64,000 nt of DNA. It comes from Trypanosoma brucei. Taxonomy: Eukaryota. Below the pieces are notes generated by a model, which was not told the DNA's origin, made no database searches, and worked only from the letters and a program-made list of their open reading frames with translations. Position 1 is the first letter of the stretch. Every line of letters begins with the position of its first letter. Location of the stretch: the NCBI GenBank assembly GCA_000002445.1, contig CM000208.1, forward strand, positions 1,376,001 to 1,440,000, in the 5' to 3' direction. A program made the position numbers and the translations under genes. This document shows positions 14,303-56,277 of this stretch, piece after piece.

Positions 14303-14633
14303 CAGGCTGTGGGAAATGAATGAGTTACATCGTCGTGTCATTGTTTCCCTTCCTTGTAACACTTTTTTTTTTTTTGGTGGGTAAAATATGGATTTTCGGT
14401 GAAGTGTTTGTGGAAGGGAAGGAAGAAGGGAGGGAATATAACATGAATGGGTCTCCAGCAGTGCACCCGAAAAAGCGGCAGAGGGGTCGGTTGTGATGTA
14501 ACGGAAGTGGATCCTTTCCGTTGTATCAAACGGTTTCATCTCCCCCTACTTTTTTGTGTGCTTTAGACGCTGTTTTCCCCAAATCTAAAACGTCTAATCC
14601 CACATAGCGTACGTCAATTCTCTTCTAATCCTT

Positions 14634-14650
14634 TGTGTGTGTGTGTGTGT
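14634..14650. repeat. (GT)n microsatellite.
   Basis: gtgtgtgtgtgtgtgtg read directly. Confidence 0.8.
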
Positions 14651-15147: not shown

Positions 15148-15567
15148 ATGCGGCGCTCGTTCGTCGTGGCACCAGTAGTCGCAACTGCGTGTTCGTTAAG
15201 CACACCCATACGAACCATCATCGCTTGTAAAGGTATTGTGGAGAATCGGATCACGAAACACTATTCGAACCGCACCGTAGAGGAGGCTAAGGCGGCACGC
15301 GAAGCACAGATAGCAAAGGCGAAACACCCAAACCCACGCAACCGTAAGGAGGAGCTCAGTCATTTAACGCATCACTGTAGTTATGAGTATGTACCAGAGT
15401 TTCAACGCTGGGCAAATGACATGCTTGCGGTTTACAGTGATCCGCACGGGTATGGTCACGACATGGCGTACCATTACCATCGAATCTGGAAGGCAAAGAG
15501 TCCGACACGGAGGGGCATTGAAGACGGTAGTGGTGCATTCGATGTGTGCAAAATACATCCGAAGTAG
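15148..15567 (+). CDS. Small hypothetical protein (139 aa) with a mitochondrial-presequence-like N-terminus.
   Basis: ATG at 15148 (the track start at 15145 is GTG). MRRSFVVAPVVATACSLST. His/Tyr-rich C-terminal half. Confidence 0.35.
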   Translation: MRRSFVVAPVVATACSLSTPIRTIIACKGIVENRITKHYSNRTVEEAKAAREAQIAKAKHPNPRNRKEELSHLTHHCSYEYVPEFQRWANDMLAVYSDPHGYGHDMAYHYHRIWKAKSPTRRGIEDGSGAFDVCKIHPK

Positions 15568-15981
15568 GGGTAGTATTTTTGTTAATTTTTCCTATGCTTG
15601 TTGGTGGCCTGACTGCGCCAAGTAGGGAGTTGTGGGAGCAATTTGTATGAATGGCGATGGTGTTTTTTTTTTTCCTGTAAGAGCGTGGGAAGTTAGACAA
15701 TTTGTCTTCTTTTCACCCGCTTATCTCCACCCCATTTTTCCGTTTAGGTATTGAGCGTAACGTCTGTGAAGGGACTCGGCCCACGACCTCATTATTTTCT
15801 CTTTCGCCTACGACTTTGATATTTCTTCTGTCCTGGTGATCAAACCCGCTGCAACCACGTGTAGGTTGTGGTGACAAACGTATGCAGTGTATACATAAAC
15901 ATGTACATATGTATTTTATTTATTTATTCAAAATTATATTCTTCTTAGTTTTGTTCGAAGGGTTTATTATTTGACACATTA

Positions 15982-17751
15982 ATGAAGCGAGCACCTTGTT
16001 TGTCACGGTCACTTGCTGTGGGTAGTGCCGCCGTAATCTTAAGTGATGTCGCATCGGATTCCATTAAGCCTTACATGCCGTGGTGGTTGATTTCTCTCAC
16101 CTTCATTTATCGCCTATTTCTTTGTGCGACTATTCGCACTGTGGAGGCCCCGGACGAGTGGTGGCAGAGCACAGAAGTGGCATATAATATGGTTTTTGGA
16201 AAGGGGCATTTGCCGTGGGAATGGCGTTACGGGTTGCGCTCTGTTTTTTTTCCGGCTGTTGTGGCACTACCTTTCTATCTGTTGAAGTTGCTTGGACGCG
16301 ACACAACGTGGGCTGTTTGGTTCGCCCCACGTGTGTTGCAAGCACTGGTTCTCACACTAATAGATGTTAGTGTATTTCGCATGGGTGCTACGCTGGATGA
16401 ACTACTGGCGAAACGTGAACTGGAATTAGCTGAGGAAATGCGGCAGTCAAAGACAAAGGGATTTTCTTATTTTCGTGAAGTCTTCGTGTCTCGCAGTCGA
16501 CGAGGTATTTGCAACTCCATATCGTATACGGCACTGTTGCTCTCATTGAGTAACTGGTACATGGCCTACTGTGGAGTGCGGCTGTACGGCAACGTCATTG
16601 AAGCCTTGCTGGTGCTTTTAACGCTGCAGCAGCGTCGCTACGTCCCGTTTCTGCTTCTCACTGGACTCGCCTCAGCAATTCGAGTGACATCCGCCGTTGT
16701 CCTTTCACCCCTTGTTTTTCGTCACTTAGCGAATGCCACGCGAGAACATGGATTCACTCGGGGGCTGTTCCGGATCGTTTTAACAGGCCTAATCGTGCTT
16801 GTAGCTGTGTTAGGGGGAGTAATGGTACTCGATTACTGTTTTTATGGCCGGTGGGTCCTGACGCCACTTGCTTTTTTCCGATTCAATGTGCTACACAACC
16901 TCAGCCGCTTCTTTGGTGAGCATCCGTGGTACTTCTACGTGGGCCCTGTGCTCGTTGGTATTGTGGGTCCCCATGTTCTCTTCACAATTGCAGCGCCTCT
17001 TGTGTTGTGGCGTGATACCGCTTCCCGTGCCGTCTCCCGGCCTGTTCTTGGGATGCTGGGCATCGGTGCATGGACACTAGGATTCTATTCCTTGATTGAT
17101 CACAAAGAAATGCGTTTTGTTTTTGTAGTCATCCCATTGTCCCTTATTACAGCTGCCTTTGTGCTGGTGCGTTGGAGTCGAACATCGGCTGTAGTAGTGA
17201 AAATGAACCGTCTGTTTGTATTGTTCAACATTGTTATGATCTATTTGATGGGCTACGTGTACCGGAGAGGCCCTCTGGATGTAATGGCTGAGGTGCGTGA
17301 CGGCCCGAGAATTAACCGGCTCGACGTAATTGCAACATGTTACACGGTGCCCGGATATAGCTACATGCACAGGAAGGTAAATCATCTGGGTTTCGTTGAC
17401 TGTTCTATTGACTTGGATGAGAAAACGGGACTTCCTAAAGTTACGGAAGATATAATGTTTCGCCGCTATCCGAAAGAATATGTGTTGTGGAGATATGATG
17501 GTAAACATAGTTTTAACATGGGTGATCTGGAGGAAAGTCGAAAGGCTTCGGAGCTGCAGAGTGTTGTGATGCCGAAATCTGCGCCTCATCCCGACGCAAT
17601 GGTAATGACTCGTGCAGTAGCGAAGGAAATAGAGGAACCATTCCTTAAGAGACACGGTTACAGACTTTATCGTACGTTTCTACACAGTCCATTAACACTG
17701 GCTCCCTATGAAGACATTTATATACAAATGTGGGTCAAGGTGACGAAGTGA
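15982..17751 (+). CDS. GPI10: GT22-family dolichol-phosphate-mannose-dependent mannosyltransferase, most likely GPI mannosyltransferase III (PIG-B/GPI10).
   Basis: Conserved luminal-loop motif PDEWWQSTEVAYNMVFGKGHLPWEW of the PIG-B/ALG9/ALG12/SMP3 family. Multi-pass hydrophobic profile. 589 aa. ATG at 15982. Confidence 0.7.
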   Translation: MKRAPCLSRSLAVGSAAVILSDVASDSIKPYMPWWLISLTFIYRLFLCATIRTVEAPDEWWQSTEVAYNMVFGKGHLPWEWRYGLRSVFFPAVVALPFYLLKLLGRDTTWAVWFAPRVLQALVLTLIDVSVFRMGATLDELLAKRELELAEEMRQSKTKGFSYFREVFVSRSRRGICNSISYTALLLSLSNWYMAYCGVRLYGNVIEALLVLLTLQQRRYVPFLLLTGLASAIRVTSAVVLSPLVFRHLANATREHGFTRGLFRIVLTGLIVLVAVLGGVMVLDYCFYGRWVLTPLAFFRFNVLHNLSRFFGEHPWYFYVGPVLVGIVGPHVLFTIAAPLVLWRDTASRAVSRPVLGMLGIGAWTLGFYSLIDHKEMRFVFVVIPLSLITAAFVLVRWSRTSAVVVKMNRLFVLFNIVMIYLMGYVYRRGPLDVMAEVRDGPRINRLDVIATCYTVPGYSYMHRKVNHLGFVDCSIDLDEKTGLPKVTEDIMFRRYPKEYVLWRYDGKHSFNMGDLEESRKASELQSVVMPKSAPHPDAMVMTRAVAKEIEEPFLKRHGYRLYRTFLHSPLTLAPYEDIYIQMWVKVTK

Positions 17752-18267
17752 AAATTAGTAGTCGGTGAAGGGGACGCAATCGGGGTGTGTCTAAATATTT
17801 GTTTATTATGATAATGCTGCCTCCTGTAGTGTTCTACAATTTTGTTTGTGTCAAATGGATAAATGACGGTTATCCCTTTCTCCCTTCTTGCGTTTCCTTA
17901 CCGACAAATCAAACGTTCACATTTTTTTTTTGATTTGTATATTCACTTAGCCTACTAACCCCATTCTTGGTCCTCGGTTCAGTATTCGTTGTTTGTGCAT
18001 GTGCGTGCAAGCTGTTTCCCGCGCTGACCGTTTGGTCTTAAGGTATTGTTACGTGAACAAACGGCAGTGGCTCGTTCAACAATAATAAACGTGAGCGTTA
18101 CAAGGAACGACAGCGGAACGAAAAAAAAGAGTGATAATGTACTTCGTACTGCCTTGTTGCACCAACAAGTGGACCACGTTCTTTTTTTCTTTTTCTTGTC
18201 TCAAAATCTTCATTTCCAGGTGCGCGAAGGTGAAAGAGCACAATCGGTGGGCGAGGGAGTTTGAACC

Positions 18268-18966
18268 ATGGAGTCTCCGCCCTCAAATGATGAAAAGCAT
18301 GAATTGGCTGTTGCACTTCGTTTGAAAGAAGAGGACGACGCACTTTTGTGTGCCTTCGGACCAGATTACTTCAATGGGGCACGTGTGGGTGCCGGTTGCG
18401 GCGGAGTGTTTACGGCATTTCTCGCATGGTGGTCCTTTGTTGATTTAAAGGAGGATCACAAACTGTGTGACTCGGCACTGCCGACTCACATGCGTGATAG
18501 ATCATGGACTATAAGACGAGGTTTTCACTCGAGGCCCTTCTTCACAGTTGGCTGTGTTGCACTAGGTATTACAACACTAATGAAAGCAACCAAGTTTTGT
18601 TTGGCGAATTATCGGTATCAGGAATTTGCTGCGGATGATATTGGTTTCGAGTTGTTGAAGAGCATGTACGTTAGCTCGCCTGAAGGGCACCGGCAGTTTG
18701 AGGCCTTTGTGAAGAAAACGATTGGTAATGAAAAAGTATTGGAATTACCATCGCCTTCCACTAACTTTGCAACGGGTGGAAAAATCCGCAACAATCAGAA
18801 TCTTACGGAAACACTAGTGAGCAGTACATCGTCATTTTGTGATCGTAAACCACCGTCGTTTTGGGATGGAGTGGCTGTTGGAATTATGGGTTCCGTCATG
18901 GACTGCTACTTACCGTGCAAACCCCTCTATAGTTACTATGGCATGAGGTGCGGTATGCGCCTTTGA
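18268..18966 (+). CDS. Hypothetical membrane protein with a glycine-zipper-like segment (GARVGAGCGGVFTAFLAWW).
   Basis: ATG at 18268. 232 aa. Hydrophobic Gly-rich segment. No family assigned. Confidence 0.45.
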   Translation: MESPPSNDEKHELAVALRLKEEDDALLCAFGPDYFNGARVGAGCGGVFTAFLAWWSFVDLKEDHKLCDSALPTHMRDRSWTIRRGFHSRPFFTVGCVALGITTLMKATKFCLANYRYQEFAADDIGFELLKSMYVSSPEGHRQFEAFVKKTIGNEKVLELPSPSTNFATGGKIRNNQNLTETLVSSTSSFCDRKPPSFWDGVAVGIMGSVMDCYLPCKPLYSYYGMRCGMRL

Positions 18967-27363: not shown

Positions 27364-28482
27364 ATGTCCAAGCGTGTTGAAGTTCTGCTTACCCAACTCC
27401 CTGCGTACAACCGCCTGAAGACGCCATATGAAGCGGAACTGATTGAAACCGCCAAAAAGATGACCGCCCCCGGTAAGGGTCTCCTCGCCGCCGATGAGTC
27501 CACTGGTTCATGTTCGAAGCGCTTTGCGGGCATCGGTCTCAGCAACACTGCAGAGCACCGCCGTCAGTACCGCGCTCTCATGCTGGAATGCGAAGGTTTC
27601 GAGCAGTACATCAGCGGTGTCATCCTGCACGATGAGACCGTGTATCAGAAAGCTAAGACCGGCGAAACATTCCCTCAGTACCTCCGTCGTCGTGGTGTGG
27701 TGCCTGGCATCAAAACCGATTGCGGTCTCGAGCCCCTCGTGGAGGGCGCCAAGGGCGAGCAGATGACTGCTGGTCTCGACGGTTACATCAAACGGGCCAA
27801 GAAATACTACGCTATGGGCTGCCGCTTCTGCAAGTGGCGCAACGTGTACAAGATCCAGAACGGCACCGTGTCTGAAGCTGTTGTTCGTTTCAACGCTGAA
27901 ACACTCGCTCGCTACGCTATCCTCTCCCAACTCTGCGGTCTTGTCCCTATTGTGGAGCCTGAGGTGATGATCGATGGCACTCACGACATTGAGACTTGCC
28001 AACGCGTTTCGCAGCATGTGTGGTCGGAGGTGGTTTCTGCACTCCACCGCCACGGCGTTGTATGGGAGGGATGCCTGCTGAAGCCCAACATGGTCGTCCC
28101 TGGCGCTGAATCCGGCCTCAAGGCCACTGCGGAGCAGGTTGCCGAGTACACCGTCAAAACCCTCGCCCGTGTTATTCCCCCTGCGCTCCCCGGCGTGACG
28201 TTCCTATCAGGTGGCCTCAGTGAGGTTATGGCCTCCGAGTACCTCAACGCTATGAACAACTGCCCGTTACCACGCCCATGGAAACTGACCTTTTCATACG
28301 CCCGTGCACTTCAGTCCAGCGCCATAAAGGCGTGGGGTGGAAAGGAATCTGGTGTCGAAGCTGGCCGCCGTGCGTTCATGCACCGCGCAAAGATGAACTC
28401 ACTTGCCCAACTCGGCAAGTACAACCGTGCTGATGACGACAAGGACTCGCAGTCTCTGTACGTTGCTGGCAACACATACTAA
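27364..28482 (+). CDS. ALD: Fructose-1,6-bisphosphate aldolase, class I, glycosomal (N-terminal PTS2).
   Basis: The full-length class I aldolase sequence matches T. brucei glycosomal aldolase as I recall it. The N-terminal RVEVLLTQL fits the PTS2 consensus R[LVI]x5[HQ][LA]. Confidence 0.95.
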
Positions 28483-36500: not shown

Positions 36501-36516
36501 CACTTGTTGAGTGGCA

Positions 36517-38652
36517 ATGGCTACAACCTTGCCTTTACAGCAACAGCGACTCTTTGACAAACTCGCGCGCGATTTCGATGCACGGGAATATGCAAAGGGC
36601 CTGCGCACAGCCGACAGCATTCTGTCCGTCGTCCCCAACCACGCGGACACCCTCGCACTGAAGGGGTTGACGTTGCACCACATGGGTCGTAAGGAAGAGG
36701 GACGTGAAATCATCGAAAGCGCCCTCGGTTTCAACGATACTTCCACAGTTGTGTGGCATTCGCTCGGGATGTGCCACCGCGCAGATGATAATCACGTGGA
36801 GGCGCTGCATGCGTTCCAGAAGGCACACGAATACGGCCCATCGAACGTAAACGTTCTACGAGATATTTCATCAATCTGTGTACAATTGAGGGAGTGGGAG
36901 CAATTCGTGGACGTTCGCAGAAAGATGGTGACCTTAAGACCAGGCGTCCGCGCCAACTGGATTGCACTATCCTGTGGCCATCGCATGCTTGGAAACAAGG
37001 AATTGGCGGCTGCTGTGATAGACGTTATGACTACTATAATGGAAGCAGGAGATAACAGGGCGGAGAAGAGCGAAGTGCGCCTCTATCAGGTGGAACTAGA
37101 GTTGGCTTGTAATGCGCCTGCCCGAGCATTGGATCTACTGAAGAAACACAGCCAGGAGATCATCGATGAATACGAAAAGGCGTCTCTTCGCGCCAAAACT
37201 CACGCACTTCTCGGGCAAAAGGTGGAAGCTGAGAAATGGTACATGGAGCTCATCACCAGAGGAATGGCGGAGGCGGATTGCGTTGCCGCGATTGCCCAAT
37301 TGCGCAAGATTCCTCTTGACGCAGCCCGACGTCCAAAGCGTGATGTGGATAAATACCTAGAACTTCTTAAACAAGTTCAGGAAGTAAACCCCAAGAGTAA
37401 CTACGCCAAACGGCAGGTCCTGGAATGTGTGCCTATCGAGCAGTTCAGGGACCAACTTCGTGAATACGCGGGGATGTTCATAGTGAAAACCATTCCCTCG
37501 CTTTTCAGTGTTCTCAAATCACTTTATCAGTGTCCTGATCGCACACAGCATATTGGTGAGGTGTTCCATCAATGGGAAGAGGAACTCATGGCGGGAGATT
37601 TCTCAAGCTTCGGTGGAAAGAAAGATCCTACTTTTATTTTGTGGGTTTGGATGTATTTGGCTTCCCACTATTGCCGTATACGTGAGTTTGGACGGGCTTT
37701 GGAGTATATTGGCCGCGCCATCGACCACACACCAACGTTTGACCTTTTGTACCTCATGAAGGCGAAAATACAAGCGAAGAACAACCAGTTGGACGAAGCT
37801 GCGAAAACGGCCGATATGGCACGCCGGTTGGACCTACAAGACAAGTACCTCAACGGAAAGGCTGCCAAGTACTTCTTCCGCGCCAATAAGATTAGGGAGG
37901 GGGAAGCACTAATGCAAATGTTCTACAAGACCACTGAGGTACCTGACGATACATACCTTACTGCGCTGGAATCCCAGTGCGCATGGTATGAAAGAGAGGT
38001 AGGGGATGCGTATTATCGAATGGGTGACTACATCTCTGCACTATCAAATTACCTGATGTGCGAGAGCCACCACCAACGTAATCACAATGAATTGTCCGAG
38101 TTTCACAACTATGTATTTCGTAGGTGCACGATGAGGGCCTGGTTTAACGTGATCGCCTGTGACGACAACCTCGAAGAAAACAAATTCTTTCAGAAACTGT
38201 GCCCCCGTATCGTTAGGACATATATGAAGATTCATGAGGAAGGTGAGGAGGCTGTGCGAGCCAAATATGCTCCTAGACCAGAAGTGGGTAAGTATAGCGA
38301 TGTGGAGGAAGGAAAGCGTATCGCAAACCTGAGACGTACATTCTACTTGCACAACGTAGACATCTCCGATCCTCTCAAGAAAGCAGGGCGATATCTTCAG
38401 GCGTCCCTTCTGCACAATGCGCTGTCATCGGAGGTGCACCTCCTAGCAGTTGAGTTCTACACAATGTGCCGAATGCCCTTTCTCGTGGCACGTGAGTTGT
38501 TGATTTTGGCTAAGTTGAAATGTCCGTCGACGAATGAGCTTGTTACTCAGTTCGAAAACAACCTGTTTCGTGAAATGGCATCCAGCATGGATCCACGGGT
38601 GGAGTCCATAATCAAGGAAACGCTTACTACCGCTTTGGAAAAACTGAATTAA
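36517..38652 (+). CDS. NAA15: N-alpha-acetyltransferase A auxiliary subunit (NAA15/Nat1-like, TPR repeats).
   Basis: N-terminal LFDKLARDFDAREYAKGLRTADSILSVVPNHADTLALKGLTLHHMGRKEEGREI..VWHSLGMCHRADDNHVEALHAFQKA parallels human NAA15 ([53 protein letters not shown]). 712 aa. The track start is GTG. ATG at 36517. Confidence 0.8.
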   Translation: MATTLPLQQQRLFDKLARDFDAREYAKGLRTADSILSVVPNHADTLALKGLTLHHMGRKEEGREIIESALGFNDTSTVVWHSLGMCHRADDNHVEALHAFQKAHEYGPSNVNVLRDISSICVQLREWEQFVDVRRKMVTLRPGVRANWIALSCGHRMLGNKELAAAVIDVMTTIMEAGDNRAEKSEVRLYQVELELACNAPARALDLLKKHSQEIIDEYEKASLRAKTHALLGQKVEAEKWYMELITRGMAEADCVAAIAQLRKIPLDAARRPKRDVDKYLELLKQVQEVNPKSNYAKRQVLECVPIEQFRDQLREYAGMFIVKTIPSLFSVLKSLYQCPDRTQHIGEVFHQWEEELMAGDFSSFGGKKDPTFILWVWMYLASHYCRIREFGRALEYIGRAIDHTPTFDLLYLMKAKIQAKNNQLDEAAKTADMARRLDLQDKYLNGKAAKYFFRANKIREGEALMQMFYKTTEVPDDTYLTALESQCAWYEREVGDAYYRMGDYISALSNYLMCESHHQRNHNELSEFHNYVFRRCTMRAWFNVIACDDNLEENKFFQKLCPRIVRTYMKIHEEGEEAVRAKYAPRPEVGKYSDVEEGKRIANLRRTFYLHNVDISDPLKKAGRYLQASLLHNALSSEVHLLAVEFYTMCRMPFLVARELLILAKLKCPSTNELVTQFENNLFREMASSMDPRVESIIKETLTTALEKLN

Positions 38653-39518
38653 CCGAAGCGGGGTGTTTCACACTACTGCACACAAGCAGGTTTCCCGCTC
38701 AGCTCGCAAGGGGGAATAGGGTAGTGGAGGTGTCGTCATACAAAAACAGATGTGAGGGTGAGATAAACGTACCGAGTAATGGATGTAAGGGAAGGGGATG
38801 GCTCAAATGCAATATAACCCGATCACAACACAGACTGTGGTTGTTTCTGTGCAGCGTACACGTAGCGTGCATAAGGCCAGGTGAGTCCTCTACCGTTTTT
38901 CCAGGTAACGGCTCCCAACTTTCTCTCCCCACTTGTGTTTCCTTTGTGCTGAATCTTCTCTGGGTTACCTTTCATCGACTTCAGCTACATGGCCGCACTT
39001 CGTACTCCCTTATTCTATATACATAGTAGGCCAAGAACATTGAGTAGGCGCACGGTTTGTCCGACCGACCTAGCGAACGAAACAGGAAGGTAAAGCCAAA
39101 AACACATCAAAATAGCTGAGAATGTGTACATGTTATTATTTTTTTTCTTTTCACTGTATACGATAACGATGAAGTATCAGCAAACAAAGTGTATAAGACC
39201 TAGAGGATTTGCGGGGATCGCACACTGTGATGATGGCGTGTGCGGTGCCTAATGTGTCGCATTCGTACTACGAGGTTGTGCGTGTATGTGTGTGGGTAAT
39301 CATCCGCAATCTTTTACTGGAATCATTCTCACTGTTGCACGGGATGTAATATTTCATCTTCACTCCTTTGACTTATTGTTGTGGCAGAGGATGCTGAGGA
39401 GGATGTAGGAGTGCTCTTAAAGGAGATAGAGGAAGTGGAGAGGGTGTAGGTTGTTCTTGTTAATTGTATTTTAATATTAGTAATGTCTTGAGAGAAGTGT
39501 GTATTGTGTAGGTCTATG

Positions 39519-39540
39519 TATGTGTGTGTGTGGGGGGGGG
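39519..39540. repeat. (TG)6 followed by G9 homopolymer.
   Basis: tgtgtgtgtgtgggggggggag read directly. Confidence 0.8.
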
Positions 39541-39845
39541 AGAGATTGTTGGTAGTTGGGAGAAGGGATAGAAAGAAGAAATGAGGGCTCTACGTAAAGT
39601 ACTTTGTGTCAGTGTTGTAGTTATAAATAATACCCGTCACTAAAGTCCGTTGCCACTCAGCGGAGTGCCGCGGGTCGTCGCGGCAGGGTCAATAACCATC
39701 ACCCAAATAACAGGATACCAAGCACCTAACTGGATTATTGAACGGAACGTGTATAAATAGGTATAAAGGAACGGATGCGTGGATCAGCTGCGGTAATATT
39801 CCACCCTCTCCTTTGTTCTTTGTTCTTTAAAGAAGGGTCGGACCT

Positions 39846-41030
39846 ATGAAGGTGAATTGTTTTCTACCTTTGTTGCTGTCAGTCAGTTATTGCACTTTAG
39901 CCGACGATAGCGCGCTCACACTGAAGGCGGGGGAAAGTATCTGCAAACTGTCGAAAAGGTTGAAGTCAGTGTTCAAGTATGTAGACCGAAGAACGGATAT
40001 TGCCTTGGAAAAGATCTCCGATCTTGAGGATATGTTGGAAGTGGTGAAGTTTAAGATTGTGAAGGGAAGGTCGAATAATACGAATAGAGAGTGCAAGGAT
40101 GTCTCCGATTTTATTATGAGTAAAGCAACTTGGTTGATAAGAAAAGGGAGGAAGGAGGTTGATAGATTGAAATACGTGGGGCTTGCGGCAATTGGAAATG
40201 CGGGACTGGCGGCAGGGAGGTTAGATGAGATGGTCAATGTGTGGAGGAGGGTGTACAGTGCCGGTACTGGAAACTTTTGCATTGGGGATGAAGGGAATGA
40301 AACAAAGAGGACTGCACTTCCAGATTGCTATCTGACAGATTCGGAGAGGGATGACTTTACTGGGATTGATGAAGGGGACAGGTTAGAAGATATAAACAAT
40401 GTTACCGCTGATGCCTTTAATGAATTATTGGAGTTGCATACAGAGGATGATTTGTGGAGTAGCCCATTGACGAGTGGCATGGACGGTAAGGACTGCCGTC
40501 TAACAAATGCCAGGTCTGGCGGAGGTTACCTCGTCGGAGAGAGCCCATCTGGTAATTTGTTTTGGGGAGACGGGGTGCTTGGGGTGAAGAGGGGTAGCCG
40601 AGGGTATGACGGAAGGACGTCGAATGTAAGGAGCAAATTACTCATAAATGATGTAGTGTGGGAAGCAGACACTGTAGAGCATACCCCTATTATAAGGAAT
40701 GTACACGAAGACTTGCAAAATTTTTTTATCGACGCAGAAAAAATTGATGAATTGGTGGGGGAGACTGGGGATAAGTGGAATTGGGAGTTCTCTCATGAAA
40801 TTGGAAGTCACAGTGGTCATCCCTCAGAGTTTGATGATGAGGAGACTGACGATGTAGCGGACAACACATCGGCAGTGGAAGAGGCAGTAGGGAAGGCATT
40901 TGTGGGGTTGGGAAATAGGGAAGCGTTTCAGGAAGAGATGGTGTTGGAAGAGATGGCGTTGTGTGGAGAATGTAATATTTACACTTATTACCAGTTGTTT
41001 TTCTTAGTTTTCGTTCCTGTTTTTGTTTGA
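39846..41030 (+). CDS. Predicted surface protein. Signal peptide, helical N-terminal domain, Cys pattern, and a C-terminal hydrophobic tail (GPI-signal or TM-like). Paralog A of a tandem pair.
   Basis: MKVNCFLPLLLSVSYCTLA signal peptide. C-terminal YYQLFFLVFVPVFV. Motifs shared with the downstream paralog: CKLSKRLKSVF, AAGRLDEMVNV, GGGY, WGDGVLGV, NDVVWEA. Confidence 0.6.
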   Translation: MKVNCFLPLLLSVSYCTLADDSALTLKAGESICKLSKRLKSVFKYVDRRTDIALEKISDLEDMLEVVKFKIVKGRSNNTNRECKDVSDFIMSKATWLIRKGRKEVDRLKYVGLAAIGNAGLAAGRLDEMVNVWRRVYSAGTGNFCIGDEGNETKRTALPDCYLTDSERDDFTGIDEGDRLEDINNVTADAFNELLELHTEDDLWSSPLTSGMDGKDCRLTNARSGGGYLVGESPSGNLFWGDGVLGVKRGSRGYDGRTSNVRSKLLINDVVWEADTVEHTPIIRNVHEDLQNFFIDAEKIDELVGETGDKWNWEFSHEIGSHSGHPSEFDDEETDDVADNTSAVEEAVGKAFVGLGNREAFQEEMVLEEMALCGECNIYTYYQLFFLVFVPVFV

Positions 41031-41140
41031 ATCAGTTTCACTTGTTTTGCATCACCGTAGACCAGGTGTCTTTAACATGTGTATATCTTCGGTGGTGGTG
41101 TGTTAGCCTTCCGTGCTGATTTTTTTTTTTGATAGTAGAG

Positions 41141-42304
41141 ATGCTCAAGTTTGTTCTTGTGTTAATACTGATTATTGTTGGTGGTGACTATTGTTATCGT
41201 GGTAACGCTGGGGTGGCTTTGAAGTTGCAAGCCGTGAAGTCCGTGTGCAGAGCATCGAAAAAGCTTAAATCGGTTTTTACATTTGTGAAGGACAAACTGG
41301 AAAAAGCGGATAGAAACTTTTACGAGGTGAAACTGCTGCAAAAGCTACTCCGCTTGAAGCTTCTAACGGAATGGACTAAAGGAGAAAAGTGCGGGACAAT
41401 GAGGGTTTTTCTTACCAACATAAGGGCGAAGGAGAGAAATATGCGACGGGAACTGTCAGCCTTATGGAAAATGGGGAGGAGAGTTGTGGGTGAGGCAGGG
41501 ATTGCAGCTGGGAGACTGGACGAAATGGTGAATGTGTTCGCACAGTCGTACGGCAACGAAAGTGAAACGAAAACGTGTATTGGGGGTACAAATGGCAGTC
41601 CTATGGAGGTTTTGAAAAGGTGCTACGCTAACAATTCCAAAACAGGGGAATGGGAGTTCCTCACAATTACAGAGGGGGGAGAACTGTTTGACAACGAGTT
41701 TGAGACAAACTTGGAGACCACGCTTCACGTTATGTTGTCGCTTGGGAATAGAGCCGATCCGTGGTATGACTATGGAAAGGATATGGGGTGTCAACTCACT
41801 AAAGGAGCCCCTGGGGGTGGGTACATGAAGAGCCATAACCTCACAGAGAACATCATTTGGGGTGATGGCATACTCGGGGTGAGCAAAAATGGAAATGGAA
41901 CTACCGGCTCCAAAGGAAACACGAGAGATGGGAAATATGCTCACGATGTCGTGTGGGAAGCAGAACCCACGAAAAATAATCCCACTCTCCGCAGGGTGAT
42001 CAAAGATTTTAGTGCATTCGAAGAATTATTTGCGAAGGTGGAGTCTTCCCACAAGCTGTTAATAGATGCATTTCTCCAGGAGAAATTGTTTGCTGAGGAA
42101 TTCGAGGCTCTTGCGGTTAGAACTAAGAAGAAAAGAGTGATCATTGGCGGTTCCACCTCCACCAAAAATAAGCAGAACAATGCCTTGGGGGGTAGTGGTG
42201 CCGGCGATGATAACGAAGTGAGTATGGAAGAGTGGTTGTCGCAAGTGGATGGGGGAATTGTAGAAGAGAGGTTGTTGGCGGAGGAAATGAAGGAGTGTAC
42301 GTAA
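41141..42304 (+). CDS. Paralog B of the tandem pair. Signal peptide, helical domain and the same motif set, but no C-terminal hydrophobic anchor. It may be secreted or a decaying copy.
   Basis: MLKFVLVLILIIVGG signal peptide. CRASKKLKSVF, AAGRLDEMVNV, GGGY, WGDGILGV, HDVVWEA. Ends in EEMKECT. The track start at 41129 is TTG. ATG at 41141. Confidence 0.6.
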   Translation: MLKFVLVLILIIVGGDYCYRGNAGVALKLQAVKSVCRASKKLKSVFTFVKDKLEKADRNFYEVKLLQKLLRLKLLTEWTKGEKCGTMRVFLTNIRAKERNMRRELSALWKMGRRVVGEAGIAAGRLDEMVNVFAQSYGNESETKTCIGGTNGSPMEVLKRCYANNSKTGEWEFLTITEGGELFDNEFETNLETTLHVMLSLGNRADPWYDYGKDMGCQLTKGAPGGGYMKSHNLTENIIWGDGILGVSKNGNGTTGSKGNTRDGKYAHDVVWEAEPTKNNPTLRRVIKDFSAFEELFAKVESSHKLLIDAFLQEKLFAEEFEALAVRTKKKRVIIGGSTSTKNKQNNALGGSGAGDDNEVSMEEWLSQVDGGIVEERLLAEEMKECT

Positions 42305-43869
42305 ACTACCTTGCACAAATTGGATAAAACTGCTTACCTAATATACAAATACATGTTAATATTGGATATAGTAATGTTTCCCCACTGGATTGATATTTGG
42401 GGTTCCCTTTTTTAAATTAGTTTCTTTGTGTTAAAGTGCCTGTAACTTTGTGGAGATGTCCGCCAACGAAACTACGCTGTTGCTGTTGGTTGTTGTGAGC
42501 GTACATTCTCGTCGAAACGCTTTGAGAAAACGAATCACAAAAGAATATATGTCAGGGAGTTGGCTGCCGCCCACCAACCCTGCGACAAGGACGAATGTAT
42601 AATCCTCAGTTTTTGAAATACTGAAAACATTTGTTGCCATGACACTTCCTCATTCGACTGTTGGTCCGTAGATACATGGTAAAGTATATGATTTACTCCG
42701 TAATCCACTAAAAAATTTGGGAGGGTAATATATAAAAAGTTGTCCCTTTTTAAGATCAAAAAGTTGTTTGAGAGGTGGCGGAAGTCCGCAGTCGCCGAGG
42801 TTGGGGAAATTACACCACAGTGGGGCCCAGGGTACCAGTGGCAACTGGATAAGAGGCCTGTACAATCCAATTAAACAAGTATCGTGCATTTTCTTGTTTT
42901 GAAAATAATATTGTAACGTGGCAACCACATTAGTGAAGTAAAGTTAGTATGTTTATGCGTGCACCTCTTGTGAGAGCGGTAGAGGCGAGGTCGACGCAAC
43001 AATAGGGATCAAGTCACTGGACGCCCCCCTCAAAAAAAAAAAAAGTAAGTGATCTCTCACTTCTCAACCATTAGTGGCGCTGGAAACTTCAAACGGTTTC
43101 AAAGGCCTGACTAACCAGTAATGTTGAGGAATTCCAAGAAAAAAGGCAACGTCCTACACACGAGAATCGTCGTTGCGTGCCACATACGGCGTTTCACAAG
43201 CGCACACGTACCGAGCTATCGCATATTTTTCACACCAGTTGCATTGGACACAGTTTCATGTGAAGGGGCGACTCTCACCAAACAAAACAAAGCTGGAGAG
43301 AAACAACTCACTGCCAAATAAGTCACCACAGTCATGCCCCGGTTTACCACCCCTTTTCAGTCGCCCCTCGCCTGTCTGTGCTTTTGGATGCTCCCGCAGC
43401 ACAACAAGGTTTAACCGTACAAAACGATGTTGAATCGAGCTGTATTTCGCGATACGTCGGCAACATCCGCCAACTGGTTGAGTCTCAGTTACCTTCCGTT
43501 AACGTGCTACATGCGTTCTCCTTGTGACGGGGAAAGCAAAGGTTGACTTAGTGATACGACCAAGACGTCTGTTAGCGCCCATACCAACAACGACTAACCA
43601 GAAGAGCATTCACGTCCCACGTTGGCAAGTCGTTTAACTTCGTCCGATTACAAAGACAAGAAAAAAGTCTTTCATCCGCCTCGGCGTGGAAAGCGAGGAG
43701 GTCATCAGCATTTCAAGATTCCTAATCCTAACCTTATTAATAAACACGTTGCTCCCCAAACCACTAATTTCAAATTTACATTAGGGACGAAACTCTCGTT
43801 GGCAAACAAATCGCAATGTCTTAGCATAAAAGCAATCGCCAGACTATCGAAACGCGTACTGTTGTGTGT

Positions 43870-44675
43870 CACATTTTTATTTTCTAAAACAAAATTTTAT
43901 TGGTATTTGTGTGATAGAAGATCAACTAATGGACAAGCAGGAAATGTTGATTCTGTTATTTTCTTTACTGTTTCTTCGCAACCCAGCGGAAGCTTACATT
44001 TCGCGCTGGTATCTACGCCCGGATCGCGACCCGGATTGCACAGATTTGAAAGGCGTATCTGACGTTCTGACCATGATGCGTGATGCTGAAGTTGCCAAAT
44101 ACGCGACCAAAAATTGCACACAACTAAAGGGGGAGGACTCGCGTACAGGGAAGCAGACGGGCAACTGCACTATTTGCGTTGGTCATTACATCTGCCATTC
44201 TCTGTATAAATGTGTGAGTAAAGACTTTGTCAGGTTTTTTGGAAATGGTAGCCAGGAAGAACCCGCAAGCGAAGAAAAAAAGGACAACGAGTCGGCTCTA
44301 GATGCTGCAGACACTTCCTCCTCAGGAACTGGAACTGAGTCTCCTGAAGAAACTACTGGCGGTAGAACCAATGTTAGATCTAATGTGGAAGATGTGAATG
44401 ACGGTAAGGAGAATGTGACCTCTCCTGAAGAAGAAAGCAGGGGCGCTCCACACGGTACCGCGGTTCCCCCTCTCGAGGAAAGAAGCCCGAACCCTACTGA
44501 CAGAAACAACCTAACACGTAATCACGTCTTAACTCTATTTGCTGGAAAATTTTCAAGCAATTCTCAACTTGTGTTGAATTTAAACAATAAGATTATGCTT
44601 TCAACGTTATTTTTCTTGCTATAAAAAAGACGAGAGATAAACTAGTTTGCTAACTGAAAACAATCCAAAACCCCT
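43870..44675 (+). repeat. Tandem duplication unit 1 (about 0.8 kb). It covers the 5' flank, the small-surface-protein CDS and about 50 nt of 3' flank.
   Basis: Near-identical to 45145..45940 except for a central block of about 190 nt and a short block near the 3' end of the CDS. Confidence 0.8.
43929..44624 (+). CDS. Small Cys-containing, Ser/Thr/Glu-rich surface protein with a signal peptide and a C-terminal GPI-anchor-type hydrophobic tail (copy 1).
   Basis: MDKQEMLILLFSLLFLRNPAEA signal peptide. Four conserved Cys (NCT..NCTICVGHYICHSLYKC). N-glycosylation sequons. Acidic S/T-rich spacer. C-terminal NSQLVLNLNNKIMLSTLFFLL. ATG at 43929, set inside the track ORF that starts at 43866. Confidence 0.65.
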   Translation: MDKQEMLILLFSLLFLRNPAEAYISRWYLRPDRDPDCTDLKGVSDVLTMMRDAEVAKYATKNCTQLKGEDSRTGKQTGNCTICVGHYICHSLYKCVSKDFVRFFGNGSQEEPASEEKKDNESALDAADTSSSGTGTESPEETTGGRTNVRSNVEDVNDGKENVTSPEEESRGAPHGTAVPPLEERSPNPTDRNNLTRNHVLTLFAGKFSSNSQLVLNLNNKIMLSTLFFLL

Positions 44676-45144
44676 AACTGTATTGCCGCTGTCCACGTAC
44701 ATATATGTTCATATCACCTATGAGCACCCAGTGGGTGTGTTCCAACATATATTTCCTCCCTATTTTGCGTACCCTTTTCATTTCGCAGGCACCATAGTGC
44801 TCATAACATCATATGTTTACAGATACGCCGAAGTTACTCTACATAGAGTAAGCGTACAAAACATATAACAGAAGGGGCTGCGTAATTAGCGATACTGTTT
44901 GCCAGTTACGTAACACAACAAATACTTGCTAGGTACCCACCTTGGACAGAGGCACGGGTGGAGTCGTGGACAATGTGTTGTGTGCTGCCGTTATCGATCA
45001 GTTGTGGCGAATGGTTGAACATGTACACTGTGAGTAAAGTGCCCCCTATAATACCTTTGTGAAACAGGAAAAGGTGTTTTAATGCATAGTAACCCTTATT
45101 GGTGGGTTGTAGTTGTTTCATCAAAATTTGTGTTGTTGTGTATT

Positions 45145-45940
45145 ATATTTTTATTTTCCAAAACAAAATTTTATTGGTATTAGTGTGATAGAAGATCAAC
45201 TAATGGACAAGCAGGAAATGTTGATTCTGTTATTTTCTTTACTGTTTCTTCGCAACCCAGCGGAAGCTTTCGAATCGCGTTCGTATGTAAAGCCAGATGG
45301 AGACCCGGACTGCACAAATTTGACAGGTGTTTCTCATGTTCCCTATCACAATGATATGGATGATTACGCGGAAGAAAATTGCACAAAAATAAAGACACCG
45401 TCTCATAATAAAGAGCAGACGGGCAACTGCACTCTTTGCGTTGGTCATTACATCTGTCATTCTCTGTATAAATGTGTGAGTAAAGACTTTGTCAGGTTTT
45501 TTGGAAATGGTAGCCAGGAAGAACCCGCAAGCGAAGAAAAAAAGGACAACGAGTCGGCTCTAGATGCTGCTGACACTTCCTCCTCAGGAACTGGAACTGA
45601 GTCTCCTGAAGAAACCACTGGCGGCAGAACCAATGTTAGATCTAATGTGGAAGATGTGAAGGACGGTAAGGAGAATGTGACCTCTCCTGAAGAAGAAAGC
45701 AGGGGCGCTCCACACGGTACCGCGGTTTCCCCTCTCGAGGAAAGAAGCCCGAACCCTACTGACAGAAAGAACCTACCACATGATCGCTTCCTCGCTTTAT
45801 TTACTGAACACTTTTTAAGCAATTCTCAACTTGTGTTGAATTTAAACAATAAGATTATGCTTTCAGCGTTATTTTTCTTGCTATAAAAAAACGAGAGATA
45901 AACTAGTTTGCTAACTGAAAACAATCAGAAATAGAGAGTG
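45145..45940 (+). repeat. Tandem duplication unit 2.
   Basis: See unit 1. The ATG-to-ATG offset is 1274 nt. Confidence 0.8.
45203..45886 (+). CDS. Small GPI-anchor-type surface protein, copy 2. The signal peptide, Cys core, acidic spacer and tail are identical to copy 1. The N-terminal mature segment of about 60 aa and the region before the omega site are diverged.
   Basis: Alignment of the two translations by eye. ATG at 45203 within track ORF 45113..45886. Confidence 0.65.
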   Translation: MDKQEMLILLFSLLFLRNPAEAFESRSYVKPDGDPDCTNLTGVSHVPYHNDMDDYAEENCTKIKTPSHNKEQTGNCTLCVGHYICHSLYKCVSKDFVRFFGNGSQEEPASEEKKDNESALDAADTSSSGTGTESPEETTGGRTNVRSNVEDVKDGKENVTSPEEESRGAPHGTAVSPLEERSPNPTDRKNLPHDRFLALFTEHFLSNSQLVLNLNNKIMLSALFFLL

Positions 45941-47445
45941 ATATCGTTCATACGTGTTTAATTGTATTTTTTTACCAATATTGCTGTATGTTTCTTTGAA
46001 CATTTAGTGGCTTGTAGTATTGTACGGTAGTGGAAAAGGTAGACACCTAATGGGGTTTGTACTTCTGTTGATGGTGGTGTAGTGTTGTTAAAGGATAGCG
46101 CTATTGACAGGGGATTGCGTGTAACGAGGGAATGGAAAATGTGTTTGGGACTAATGGAAGGGAAACGTAGATAACATAATGTAGTGAGGTCGCGTAATTA
46201 ATGCTCATTACGGTAGCATGGCTTCGTGGCGGGGTCTGATGGATACGCAACGGCATGCGTGGGGTGAACAGGGGCTATGTTACCCAGGCAAATACGGAGA
46301 GAAATTGTATGCCACTGCATCGTTGCGCGGTGTAGGAAGGATATTGACCACATGGGATGTTATGTTGTACGAATCTGGTTTCTCTTTTGTCCTAATCTCC
46401 TAGTTGGGGGTGGAAAGGGAATCTGCTAGAGGAAACGGGGAGAGGCATTATGTCTGCGGCGGTTTCGTTGGTCGAGGGAAATGGGTATGGATATTAGATC
46501 CGACTTGAGAGCCGCTCTTCACTACACCAGATTGCGGAGCTCTATCCGAAGGAAAAGTGCACCGGCACGGTGGGCAATTGGGTAGAGTGCTCAGAGTTGT
46601 GAGTATATGCTAGGGTGTATTTGCATATTTCCTGCTGAACCAAAGCGGGAGACAGGAATAAGCGGGGATAATGGGATGGTTTCTCGTGGTTTGTACTGCT
46701 ATGCGCGGATGTTTTGTCAGGTGTGGACGACGGGTTAACTGAGGGGCGGCGTTTCCCGAAAAGAAAAGTGCGGAGCGGATGCGACGCAGATATATTTTTA
46801 AGGCGCGTAATTGGCAGTGCGGTAAGCATACTGAGGGATATCGGAAAATAGGACAGTGAATATGCGGAGGGGAGTGAGCAATGGCAACTCCTGAAAAATG
46901 AAAGACCAAGAGGCGACGCCGGTACGACACACGAGGAAAGCACAGAAGCATTTTCGCGTTGTTGGCCATCCAGCAAGCTTTTCCTCCCATCCATACAATG
47001 CTTCCGCTGCCCCTTTCACGTACATTGGTCCCCGCAGGTGTAGTTCCTGTGGATAATTCTCTTAGGGTTAAGTTCGATTTCTCCGCGTGAAGTGGTGTAC
47101 CCCCAAAATTCCCCATTATTGTTCGTCCCACCTTTACAGTTTGCGGTTTCCTTGCAGGCCTCTTTTTCTACACATCCGTAATCAAATTTGTTTGCCGCTT
47201 CCGTGTCAATGGATGTTCATTGGGTGCCACCGCAGAAGTGGTAGGGGACTCTGGGGCGAACGCTGTTTTTGACAAGTTCCAGAGTTTTCTGATTTTGTTA
47301 CTCTTTGTTTTAGTGATTTGTCGATCCATGACCTTCTGAGGCAGCTCTACGTTAGCCCCCGTTTCATATAGTTGTTGTTGTTTTTCCAAACGCTTTGCGG
47401 GCGTTTACGCACTCCTCGACGTCCACTCCCCGTATTGTACGGCCT
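45941..47445. other. Convergent strand-switch region, a candidate Pol II transcription termination zone, between the plus-strand and minus-strand polycistronic units.
   Basis: All credible CDSs upstream are on the plus strand and all downstream are on the minus strand. Intergenic strand composition flips from T/C-rich on the plus strand to A/G-rich on the plus strand across this point. No tRNA-like structure found. Confidence 0.7.
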
Positions 47446-48039
47446 CTACGGGCAGGTCGTGGAGTCTCCAAACCCCTTTTCGTGCATTTGACACCTAAAC
47501 TTTTTCGCTTTCACAATGAAAACTTCCGGGGGAATCTCGGAAAGAGGTGGTATAACTGAGGCGGTTGTGCAGGTTCGAAGGCTTTGCCCATCTATAGCAA
47601 GGTGATTTCCAGCCGTACCGTTCATTTCATGCACCGACACTTCGCCCCAGAGAAAATAGCTCGGTTGAGCGGCATCAGCAACAACAACAAAAGAGAGGAA
47701 AAACGATCGTAGTTGCTCCACCTTCATGTTTCCCCAACCCGCGCCGCAGGCATGAGGAACGCAAGCCTGCGCTACACAACCAGTAAGGGTGACCGCCACA
47801 GTTCCCTGCACTTGATTCATTTCGAAATGCAAAATTGCGCGTCCTCCTCGCCGCCTGCAAAAAATAGGATCAACGCTCAGTTGTTTTAGTGGTGTTCTGT
47901 AATCCTGGCGCAGAAAAGTGGTGTTAAGATTTAATTCCTTCAGCCCCCAAGCATCTCGTGACTGCAAGAAAATGAAGAGAAGCATTACAACACCGACATG
48001 CCACCAGCGAACGCATGAGAATAAGACAGCGCTGGGCAT
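47446..48039 (-). CDS. Hypothetical protein with a signal-peptide-like or TM N-terminus (197 aa).
   Basis: ATG confirmed on the minus strand at 48039. MPSAVLFSCVRWWHVGVVMLLFIFLQS hydrophobic start. No family recognised. Confidence 0.4.
   Translation of the reverse strand: MPSAVLFSCVRWWHVGVVMLLFIFLQSRDAWGLKELNLNTTFLRQDYRTPLKQLSVDPIFCRRRGGRAILHFEMNQVQGTVAVTLTGCVAQACVPHACGAGWGNMKVEQLRSFFLSFVVVADAAQPSYFLWGEVSVHEMNGTAGNHLAIDGQSLRTCTTASVIPPLSEIPPEVFIVKAKKFRCQMHEKGFGDSTTCP

Positions 48040-53901: not shown

Positions 53902-56277
<2,376 letters not shown>

What the first reader, a model, noticed from the sequence alone, without database searches (positions are those of the whole stretch)
39846..47445. 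Surface-protein gene island parked at the terminal end of a polycistron, abutting the convergent strand switch
The last four genes of the plus-strand unit (two roughly 390-aa paralogs and two small GPI-type paralogs) are all predicted secreted or surface proteins, and they sit immediately before the transcription termination zone. In trypanosomatids, positions far from the Pol II start site and close to termination regions are where developmentally regulated genes, or genes needing low basal expression, tend to accumulate. Both pairs arose by local duplication, which suggests this end-of-unit niche tolerates or promotes tandem expansion and recombination.
Basis: inference. Interest (0 to 1): 0.5.

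Follow-up and report, generated by a model that had tools for sequence, protein, structure and literature searches.

The report
Known trypanosome bloodstream surface-gene cluster

Summary
The last four plus-strand genes before a 1.56-kb convergent strand-switch region all encode signal-peptide proteins.

The window is T. brucei TREU927 chromosome 10. The genes are:
- Tb927.10.5680 and 5690: PAG-like proteins of the transferrin-receptor-like family Fam14.
- Tb927.10.5700 and 5710: family Fam05; 5700 is ESP3.

Published primers for 5700/5710 match both small genes, which fixes the identification at sequence level.

The finding is already in the literature:
- Veitch 2010 lists these four genes as a cluster at a convergent strand switch, 14- to 122-fold higher in bloodstream than procyclic forms.
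- Haenni 2009 noted that all annotated PAG-like genes lie at convergent strand switches.
- Jackson 2010 singled out 5710 as fast-evolving.

- The two ~390-aa genes are 31% identical, so they are old paralogs, not a recent local duplication. They form a GPI-plus/GPI-minus pair like ESAG6/ESAG7.
- Only the small pair is a recent tandem duplicate (80% identical, with a mosaic pattern).
- The cluster is well expressed in bloodstream forms, so it is not kept at low expression in every stage.

How the four genes are co-regulated remains unknown. Novelty: already known. Interest: low.

The parts
36511..38652 (+). Last housekeeping gene of the + unit: NatA auxiliary subunit (Tb927.10.5670, NAT1). It marks the upstream border of the island.
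   Evidence: Pfam NatA_aux_su, E=1.5e-81. Gadelha 2015 supplement lists Tb927.10.5670 as NAT1.
38653..39845 (+). 1.19-kb intergenic region upstream of G1. It contains a short (TG)6 tract at 39521-39532. No promoter could be tested.
   Evidence: Sequence read. Similar GT tracts occur in other intergenic regions of the window.
39846..41030 (+). G1 = Tb927.10.5680 (old ID Tb10.70.1310), annotated 'PAG1, putative'. Fam14 transferrin-receptor-like protein with a signal peptide and a C-terminal hydrophobic (GPI-type) tail.
   Evidence: 100% identical to XP_822812. PF00913, E=8e-11. ESAG6 of PDB 6SOY, E=6.9e-14. Tail FFLVFVPVFV. Coding-strand GC skew 0.41.
41141..42304 (+). G2 = Tb927.10.5690 (Tb10.70.1300), annotated 'PAG2, putative'. 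Fam14 transferrin-receptor-like protein with a signal peptide and no GPI signal. Probable partner of G1.
   Evidence: 100% identical to XP_822813. PF00913, E=2.5e-13. ESAG7 of PDB 6SOY, E=5.8e-20. No C-terminal hydrophobic tail. 64 in the spectra/peptide-count column and 46% coverage in the bloodstream surface proteome.
43929..44624 (+). G3 = Tb927.10.5700 (Tb10.70.1290) = ESP3, family Fam05. Architecture: signal peptide, six-cysteine domain, acidic low-complexity stalk, GPI-type tail.
   Evidence: 100% identical to XP_822814. Savage 2012 primers match 44177-44199 and 44298-44318 with one mismatch each. ESP3 = Tb927.10.5700.
45203..45886 (+). G4 = Tb927.10.5710 (Tb10.70.1280), tandem Fam05 paralog of G3 and the last gene of the + unit. 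Fast-evolving between subspecies.
   Evidence: 100% identical to XP_822815. Savage primers match exactly at 45439-45461 and 45560-45580. Only 86-88% identical to the T. b. gambiense and T. b. equiperdum proteins. Jackson 2010 gives 93.7% nucleotide identity.
43860..44665 (+). Conserved block of tandem unit 1. It pairs with 45134-45926 at 88.5% identity over about 806 nt. Inside it, a 300-nt core (44152-44451 against 45414-45713) is 98% identical.
45887..47445 (.). Convergent strand-switch region between Tb927.10.5710 and 5720. No tRNA gene, Rfam match or repeat was found. GC skew is +0.20 on the + strand.
   Evidence: Fernandez-Moya 2014 describes silenced transcripts bound by RBP33 from this same switch region.
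47446..48039 (-). Tb927.10.5720, the last gene of the opposing unit. 197-aa ORF with a signal-peptide-like N-terminus and no Pfam match. Normally silent.
   Evidence: its transcripts accumulate only when RBP33 is depleted.

Best explanation
The region is the Tb927.10.5680-5710 cluster of T. brucei TREU927 chromosome 10. It is a gene island confined to African trypanosomes and occupies the last 6 kb of an RNA polymerase II polycistron, ending at a convergent strand switch.

Shown:
- 5680 and 5690 are homologs of the ESAG6/ESAG7 transferrin-receptor subunits. They are arranged as a GPI-plus/GPI-minus tandem pair.
- 5700 and 5710 are tandem Fam05 genes. Each encodes a small six-cysteine, GPI-type glycoprotein with an acidic stalk.
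- According to published data, mRNA of all four genes is much higher in bloodstream than in procyclic forms.
- Three of the four proteins are detected in the bloodstream surface-labelled proteome.

Inferred:
- 5680 and 5690 assemble into an ESAG6/7-like heterodimeric surface receptor whose host ligand is unknown.
- The Fam05 genes diversify their exposed N-terminal domain, while gene conversion keeps the stalk and anchor region uniform.
- The island sits where it does because strand-switch borders are non-syntenic positions. New lineage-specific genes can be inserted and duplicated there without disrupting the processing of conserved housekeeping genes.
- The shared bloodstream-specific expression most likely comes from control of each mRNA after transcription, possibly reinforced by a position effect at the unit's end. 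This last step is the weakest.
For: Identity:
- The window proteins are 100% identical to TREU927 entries XP_822812 to XP_822815.
- The published Tb927.10.5700/5710 primers hit both small genes.
- The flanking genes match the published order: aldolase (Pfam match) is listed as Tb927.10.5620, and NAT1 as 5670 and VCP as 5770, in the Gadelha supplement.

Layout.

Receptor homology and GPI asymmetry:
-.
- The same GPI-minus/GPI-plus PF00913 pair, followed by ESAG-like genes and a convergent switch, recurs on chromosome 11 (locus L001).

Stage regulation: Veitch 2010 and Jensen 2009.

Protein detection: Gadelha 2015 supplement.

Polymerase II context: Reynolds 2016 and Pena 2014 both place the chromosome 10 'PAG2' copy in a Pol II unit. 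Both report that it does not respond to H3.V or H1 loss, unlike the copy in the procyclin locus.

General rule already published: Haenni 2009 and Jackson 2013.

Fam05 mosaicism.
Against: - No chromatin, nascent-RNA or polymerase data could be examined here, so the assignment to Pol II rests on statements in papers.
- Four adjacent genes with unrelated 3' flanks share one stage pattern. Only about 40 nt after the stop codon is conserved between G3 and G4. That is awkward for purely gene-by-gene post-transcriptional control and leaves room for a position or chromatin effect.
- Tagged ESP3 localised 'elsewhere' in the cell rather than to the surface.
- Savage 2012 did not detect 5700/5710 mRNA in bloodstream forms.
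- The heterodimer is only a prediction, and no ligand came out of the complement screen.
Confidence: 0.85

Rival explanations
1. The island is its own transcription unit, driven by RNA polymerase I or a dedicated promoter upstream of G1, like VSG expression sites and procyclin loci. It would then not be the tail of the Pol II polycistron.
For: - Veitch 2010 speculated exactly this for these clusters, because four or five contiguous genes are co-regulated 14- to 122-fold and belong to PAG/ESAG families normally found in Pol I units.
- There is a 1.19-kb gap before G1 and an abrupt compositional shift: GC skew is 0.35 across 39-42 kb.
Against: - Depletion of H1 and knockout of H3.V change the PAG2 copy in the procyclin locus but not the chromosome 10 polycistron copy. 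Both papers treat the latter as Pol II transcribed.
- Veitch found no promoter homology upstream of the analogous chromosome 11 cluster.
- There are no EP or GPEET genes in the window.
- GT tracts like the one upstream of G1 occur in other intergenic regions.
Confidence: 0.08
2. Expression of the island is set mainly by premature Pol II termination at H3.V/H4.V/base J chromatin just upstream of, or within, the island. That keeps basal expression low and allows stage-specific read-through.
For: - Haenni 2009 reports, as a personal communication, H3V enrichment at all listed PAG loci.
- Reynolds 2016 documents termination inside polycistrons that silences terminal genes elsewhere in T. brucei.
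- The switch region next to the island yields normally silenced RBP33-bound transcripts.
Against: - The island is high in bloodstream forms and low in procyclic forms. Base J exists only in bloodstream forms (established knowledge), so J-dependent attenuation predicts the opposite pattern.
- The proteins are readily detected in bloodstream forms.
- The Pol II copy of PAG2 on chromosome 10 did not change significantly in the H3.V knockout.
- My searches of the held supplements were uninformative.
Confidence: 0.15
3. The PAG-like sequences are kept at strand switches mainly as DNA or RNA elements that stop or insulate transcription. Their protein-coding capacity would be secondary.
For: - Haenni 2009 showed that PAG1 contains elements promoting Pol I termination, and that PAG-like sequences lie almost exclusively at strand switches or polymerase changes.
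- G1 and G2 have an outlying G-over-C skew that persists at third codon positions (0.38 and 0.29, against a mean of 0.05 with sd 0.10 elsewhere). The chromosome 11 pair shows the same skew.
Against: - Both ORFs are intact and 98.5-99.7% identical in protein sequence across T. brucei subspecies.
- They retain the conserved cysteines and the AAGRL[DE]E motif of the family.
- Their proteins are detected by mass spectrometry.
- Two further expressed genes lie downstream of them in the same unit, so they do not terminate most Pol II transcription in bloodstream forms.
Confidence: 0.12

Closest known systems
ESAG6/ESAG7 heterodimeric transferrin receptor of T. brucei (PDB 6SOY)
   Same: G1 and G2 are sequence homologs of both subunits (E=7e-14 to 6e-20). 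They are adjacent, and one has a GPI-type tail while the other lacks it. They are expressed in bloodstream forms.
   Different: - G1 and G2 are only 31% identical to each other, whereas Jackson 2013 describes ESAG6 and ESAG7 as otherwise very closely related.
- They lie in a chromosome-internal Pol II unit, not behind a telomeric Pol I promoter.
- They belong to Fam14 (PAG-like), not Fam15.
- Their ligand is unknown, and transferrin binding has not been tested.
Procyclin-associated genes PAG1/2/4/5 of the EP/PAG loci (Pol I units, chromosome 10)
   Same: Same family. G2 is 53% identical to a PAG annotated on the same chromosome. That locus also ends at a convergent strand switch.
   Different: - No procyclin genes lie upstream here.
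- The stage bias is the opposite: bloodstream-high rather than procyclic.
- There is no response to H1 or H3.V loss.
- The annotated names 'PAG1' and 'PAG2' are therefore misnomers for PAG-like genes.
Chromosome 11 cluster Tb11.01.6210-6250 (Veitch 2010 'cluster 1'; locus L001 here)
   Same: A PF00913 GPI-minus/GPI-plus tandem pair, followed by further surface-protein genes, at the end of a unit at a convergent switch. It is bloodstream-upregulated 41- to 90-fold. The PAG-like pair shows the same G skew.
   Different: - The downstream cargo is ESAG2/ESAG11-like rather than Fam05.
- The order of the pair is reversed (GPI-minus first).
- Intergenic spacers are very short (12-203 bp according to Veitch), against 110-1,624 bp here.
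Fam4-7 T. brucei-specific strand-switch-associated glycoprotein families (Jackson 2013)
   Same: G3 and G4 are Fam05. They have a signal peptide and GPI signal, lie in tandem next to a strand switch and are bloodstream-enriched, which is exactly the published description.
   Different: Nothing material. This locus is one of the examples on which that description is based.

Membership tests
Fam14 / PAG-like transferrin-receptor-like proteins | A-type VSG N-terminal domain (PF00913) above the Pfam threshold | tested here: met
   G1 scores 42.2 bits and G2 50.5 bits against a cut-off of 22.1.
Fam14 / PAG-like transferrin-receptor-like proteins | Closer to PAGs than to other VSG-like proteins, and homologous to ESAG6/7 | tested here: met
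   G2 is 53% identical to a PAG (XP_823244). Both genes hit 6SOY chains A and B and no VSG chain. They are labelled Fam14 in the Gadelha supplement.
Procyclin-associated genes in the strict sense | Located downstream of EP/GPEET procyclin genes in a Pol I unit | tested here: not met
   No EP, GPEET or DP repeat-coding sequence occurs in any frame of the window. The upstream neighbour is NAT1.
ESAG6/7-type heterodimeric receptor | Tandem pair with one GPI-anchored and one anchorless subunit | tested here: met
   G1 has a C-terminal hydrophobic tail (10-mer hydropathy 3.02). G2 has none (0.72).
ESAG6/7-type heterodimeric receptor | Physical heterodimer that binds a host ligand (transferrin for ESAG6/7) | not testable with these tools
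   The heterodimer is only predicted in a 2026 preprint. No complement ligand was found. No multimer prediction tool was available.
ESAG6/7-type heterodimeric receptor | Sits directly behind a bloodstream expression-site promoter | tested here: not met
   The locus is chromosome-internal, between NAT1 and a convergent switch.
Fam05 (ESP3 family) | Signal peptide, conserved cysteine-rich domain and GPI-type tail | tested here: met
   Six invariant cysteines plus the YA..NCT and GNCT.C.G motifs are shared with Tb927.3.600 and TEOVI_000696500. Signal peptide and tail.
Fam05 (ESP3 family) | Restricted to the T. brucei group | tested here: met
   HMMER against 1.84 billion representatives gave four hits. 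Three are T. brucei-group proteins and the fourth is a spurious repeat protein.
Fam05 (ESP3 family) | Adjacent to a strand switch and arrayed in tandem | tested here: met
   Matches the description in Jackson 2013.
Genes silenced by H3.V/base J termination inside a polycistron | Lie at the distal end of a polycistron | tested here: met
Genes silenced by H3.V/base J termination inside a polycistron | H3.V/J peak upstream of the genes, and derepression when H3.V or J is lost | tested here: inconclusive
   - No ChIP data were available.
- The gene IDs are absent from the held supplements, but those files also lack control IDs.
- The text of Reynolds 2016 says the Pol II copy of PAG2 on chromosome 10 did not change significantly.

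The most novel reading that the evidence does not exclude
Tb927.10.5680 and 5690 form a second heterodimeric receptor, encoded outside the expression sites, that captures an unidentified host ligand in bloodstream forms. In addition, the strongly G-skewed PAG-like ORFs slow or terminate polymerases at convergent strand switches, so that a receptor gene pair also acts as a boundary element. Both halves have been suggested separately in the literature, but neither has been demonstrated for this locus.
Probability: 0.2. Interest if true: 0.5.

Novelty: already known. Interest (0 to 1): 0.15.

Why it matters
The locus is a textbook-style example of a known rule. African-trypanosome-specific surface-protein genes collect at strand-switch borders of polycistrons, and they are co-regulated there even though Pol II initiation is generally considered not to be regulated gene by gene.

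Two questions remain open:
- How is a block of four adjacent genes made 14- to 122-fold bloodstream-specific?
- What do the 5680/5690 receptor-like pair and the fast-evolving Fam05 proteins bind?

Neither question is raised for the first time by this finding. Both have been posed in print since 2009-2013.

Tried and rejected
1. Procyclin locus hypothesis. The annotated names 'PAG1' and 'PAG2' suggested the Pol I EP/PAG locus. No EP or GPEET repeats occur in any frame, so this was rejected.

2. tRNA or other RNA genes at the switch region. None were found.

3. Degenerate extra copies or pseudogenes of the four genes elsewhere in the window. tblastn found none.

4. Structure of Fam05.
- AlphaFold2 gave pLDDT 44 with a single sequence and 48 with an 8-sequence alignment.
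- Foldseek against the PDB gave a best E-value of 6.
- No fold could be assigned.

5. A GT-rich promoter upstream of G1. The (TG)6 tract is not distinctive, because similar tracts lie at 14634, 28947 and 49063.

6. Bacterial-type promoter and terminator scan of the switch region. Counts were at shuffle level, and the scan is irrelevant for a eukaryote.

7. Looking up the genes in the supplements of Reynolds 2016 and Kieft 2020. There were no hits, but control IDs are also absent from the Reynolds files, so the result is uninformative.

8. Reproducing the published splice-acceptor position for Tb927.10.5720 (396 nt upstream of the ATG). No AG lies exactly there in this strain's sequence, so I did not use it.

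9. The look-up of encoding contigs for the TREU927 proteins. They are not on record. Only the T. b. equiperdum chromosome 11 locus could be fetched.

10. Positive selection on Fam05. dN/dS is 0.59 in the variable N-terminal domain. It is 2.0 in the last 41 codons, but that rests on only 16 substitutions. There is no convincing signal.


Full report
**What is there**

The window has a plain two-unit layout. All substantial ORFs up to 45886 are on the + strand, and all from 47446 onward are on the - strand. A convergent strand switch therefore lies at 45887-47445. It contains no tRNA gene, Rfam match or repeat.

The last four + genes are:

| Gene | Coordinates | Length |
|---|---|---|
| G1 | 39846-41030 | 394 aa |
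| G2 | 41141-42304 (true ATG) | 387 aa |
| G3 | 43929-44624 | 231 aa |
| G4 | 45203-45886 | 227 aa |

A crude hydropathy check gave the following:
- G1 has a moderately hydrophobic N-terminus and a hydrophobic C-terminal tail.
- G2 has a signal-peptide-like N-terminus but no tail.
- G3 and G4 have both features.

Only one of the 23 other ORFs in the window passes the same signal-peptide threshold. The first gene on the opposite side of the switch (47446-48039) also passes it. The clustering of secretory proteins at this unit border is real.

**Identity**

The four proteins are 100% identical to T. b. brucei TREU927 entries XP_822812 to XP_822815 on the 4.05-Mb chromosome record.

The neighbours match the published gene order:
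- Aldolase (27364-28482, Pfam match) is listed as Tb927.10.5620.
- NAT1 (36511-38652) is listed as Tb927.10.5670.
- VCP (53902-56244) is listed as Tb927.10.5770.

The supplement of Gadelha 2015 gives:
- 5680 = 'PAG1, putative', Fam14.
- 5690 = 'PAG2, putative', Fam14.
- 5700 = ESP3, Fam05.

The qPCR primers that Savage 2012 published for 'Tb927.10.5700/5710' match G4 exactly and G3 with one mismatch each. The ID assignment is therefore fixed at sequence level. The old IDs are Tb10.70.1310, 1300, 1290 and 1280.

**What the proteins are**

G1 and G2 carry the A-type VSG domain PF00913. In the PDB they hit only the two subunits of the T. brucei transferrin receptor, ESAG6 and ESAG7 (6SOY), with E-values from 7e-14 to 6e-20.

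They are only 31% identical to each other. G2 is 53% identical to a PAG annotated elsewhere on chromosome 10. They are therefore old, differentiated paralogs and not a recent local duplicate.

One has a GPI-type tail and the other lacks one, as in ESAG6/ESAG7. [quoted passage not shown] No complement ligand emerged from that screen.

There are no EP or GPEET procyclin repeats anywhere in the window. The name 'procyclin-associated' is therefore only a family label here.

G3 and G4 share this architecture:
- a signal peptide;
- a domain of about 70 residues with six invariant cysteines and the motifs YA..NCT and GNCT.C.G;
- an acidic low-complexity stalk;
- a hydrophobic tail.

A HMMER search of 1.84 billion representative proteins found only T. 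brucei-group relatives, Tb927.3.600 and TEOVI_000696500, apart from one spurious repeat protein. Structure prediction failed, with pLDDT of 44-48 and no Foldseek match.

**Duplication and recombination**

The G3/G4 repeat is a block of about 806 nt at 88.5% identity. It covers the CDS plus about 70 nt upstream and about 40 nt downstream. The spacers between copies are unrelated.

Divergence within the pair is mosaic:

| Codons | Region | Synonymous divergence (dS) |
|---|---|---|
| 1-22 | signal peptide | 0 |
| 23-78 | mature N-terminal domain | 0.73 |
| 79-190 | central stalk | 0.055 |

Copies from T. b. gambiense and T. b. equiperdum combine the C-terminal variants (TGGR or TNDT, with AGKFSS or TEHFLS) in all four ways. 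T. b. equiperdum has three copies. This fits tandem expansion with gene conversion.

G4 is only 86-88% identical to its counterparts in other subspecies, whereas G1 and G2 are 98.5-99.7% identical. Jackson 2010 had already singled out Tb10.70.1280 as one of the fastest-evolving genes, 'located at strand-switch regions'.

**What is already published**

- Veitch 2010 lists exactly these four genes as 'differentially expressed gene cluster 2'. They are 122-, 14-, 95- and 18-fold higher in bloodstream than in procyclic forms. [quoted passage not shown] The authors speculated about Pol I transcription.
- Jensen 2009 found the PAG-like pair 3.6- and 9.9-fold up in bloodstream forms.
- Haenni 2009 reported that all annotated PAG and PAG-related genes lie at convergent strand switches. 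These regions are enriched for H3V (a personal communication in that paper), and PAG1 sequence promotes Pol I termination.
- Fernandez-Moya 2014 studied the switch region between 5710 and 5720 as a source of silenced transcripts bound by RBP33.
- Reynolds 2016 and Pena 2014 both note a PAG2 copy on chromosome 10 in a Pol II unit. It does not respond to H3.V or H1 loss, unlike the copy in the procyclin locus.

**Replication at a second locus**

I fetched the chromosome 11 locus of T. b. equiperdum (L001). It shows the same design:
- a GPI-minus PF00913 gene of 417 aa;
- a GPI-plus PF00913 gene of 369 aa;
- ESAG2-like ORFs;
- a convergent switch.

This is Veitch's 'cluster 1'.

**Mechanism**

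Shown:
- the position at the end of the unit;
- the protein families;
- the GPI asymmetry;
- bloodstream-biased mRNA and protein, from published data.

Inferred:
- G1 and G2 form a heterodimeric receptor;
- the N-terminal domain of Fam05 is under diversification;
- strand-switch borders act as permissive sites for lineage-specific insertions.

The cause of co-regulation is unresolved.
It does not fit the direction of regulation, because base J is specific to bloodstream forms (established knowledge) while the island is bloodstream-high.
- The Pol I idea is disfavoured by the H1 and H3.V results.
- I regard post-transcriptional control, possibly with a position effect, as most likely, but I could not test it.

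**Verdict**

- G1/G2 are not a recent local duplication.
- G2 is anchorless.
- The cluster is not kept at low expression in bloodstream forms.

Every main element of the finding has been in print since 2009-2013. Novelty: already known. Interest: low.

Noticed in passing
window 39846-42304; L001 10001-15474: G1 and G2 have an outlying coding-strand GC skew of 0.41 and 0.31, and of 0.38 and 0.29 at third codon positions. The 26 other ORFs of the window range from -0.05 to 0.14 overall, with a third-position mean of 0.05 and sd of 0.10. The chromosome 11 PAG-like pair (0.27 and 0.31) and ESAG2 (0.23) share the skew. One G-quadruplex motif lies at 40564-40604. It is unclear whether this is a family codon habit or relates to the termination-promoting activity reported for PAG1 sequence.
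   Followed up: partly
window 47446-48039 (-): Tb927.10.5720, the last gene of the opposing unit, also encodes a protein with a signal-peptide-like N-terminus. It is 197 aa with 8 cysteines and no Pfam match. The strand switch is therefore flanked on both sides by putative secretory genes. Published work shows its transcripts accumulate only after RBP33 depletion.
   Followed up: partly
window 43929-44624 vs 45203-45886: Mosaic divergence between the Fam05 paralogs. The signal peptide is identical. Codons 23-78 have dS 0.73 and dN 0.43. Codons 79-190 have dS 0.055. The last 41 codons have dN/dS of about 2, based on few substitutions. Copies from other subspecies carry all four combinations of the two C-terminal variant sites, which points to gene conversion.
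   Followed up: yes
window 44666-45133 and 45927 onward: The tandem repeat period is 1,262-1,274 nt, but only about 806 nt is conserved. The spacers after each copy are unrelated. The two Fam05 genes therefore have different 3' flanks beyond about 40 nt after the stop codon, yet share the same stage-specific expression.
   Followed up: partly
L001 (T. b. equiperdum chr 11) 10001-18900: A second locus has the same architecture: a GPI-minus and a GPI-plus PF00913 pair, then ESAG2-like ORFs, then a convergent switch. The pair is in the reverse order relative to the chromosome 10 locus.
   Followed up: partly
Tb927.10.5700/5710 (window 43929-45886), literature: There is an unresolved discrepancy. 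Savage 2012 did not detect these mRNAs in bloodstream forms and saw a weak signal only in salivary glands. Veitch 2010 found them 18- to 95-fold higher in bloodstream than procyclic forms, and Gadelha 2015 found ESP3 peptides strongly enriched in the bloodstream surface-labelled fraction. Tagged ESP3 nevertheless localised away from the surface.
   Followed up: no
P0021 = Tb927.3.600; P0019 = TEOVI_000696500: These are distant Fam05 relatives (about 25% identity) with the same six cysteines, the NCT and GNCT.C.G motifs, an acidic stalk and a hydrophobic tail. They define a small cysteine-knot-like domain of unknown fold that was found only in the T. brucei group.
   Followed up: partly
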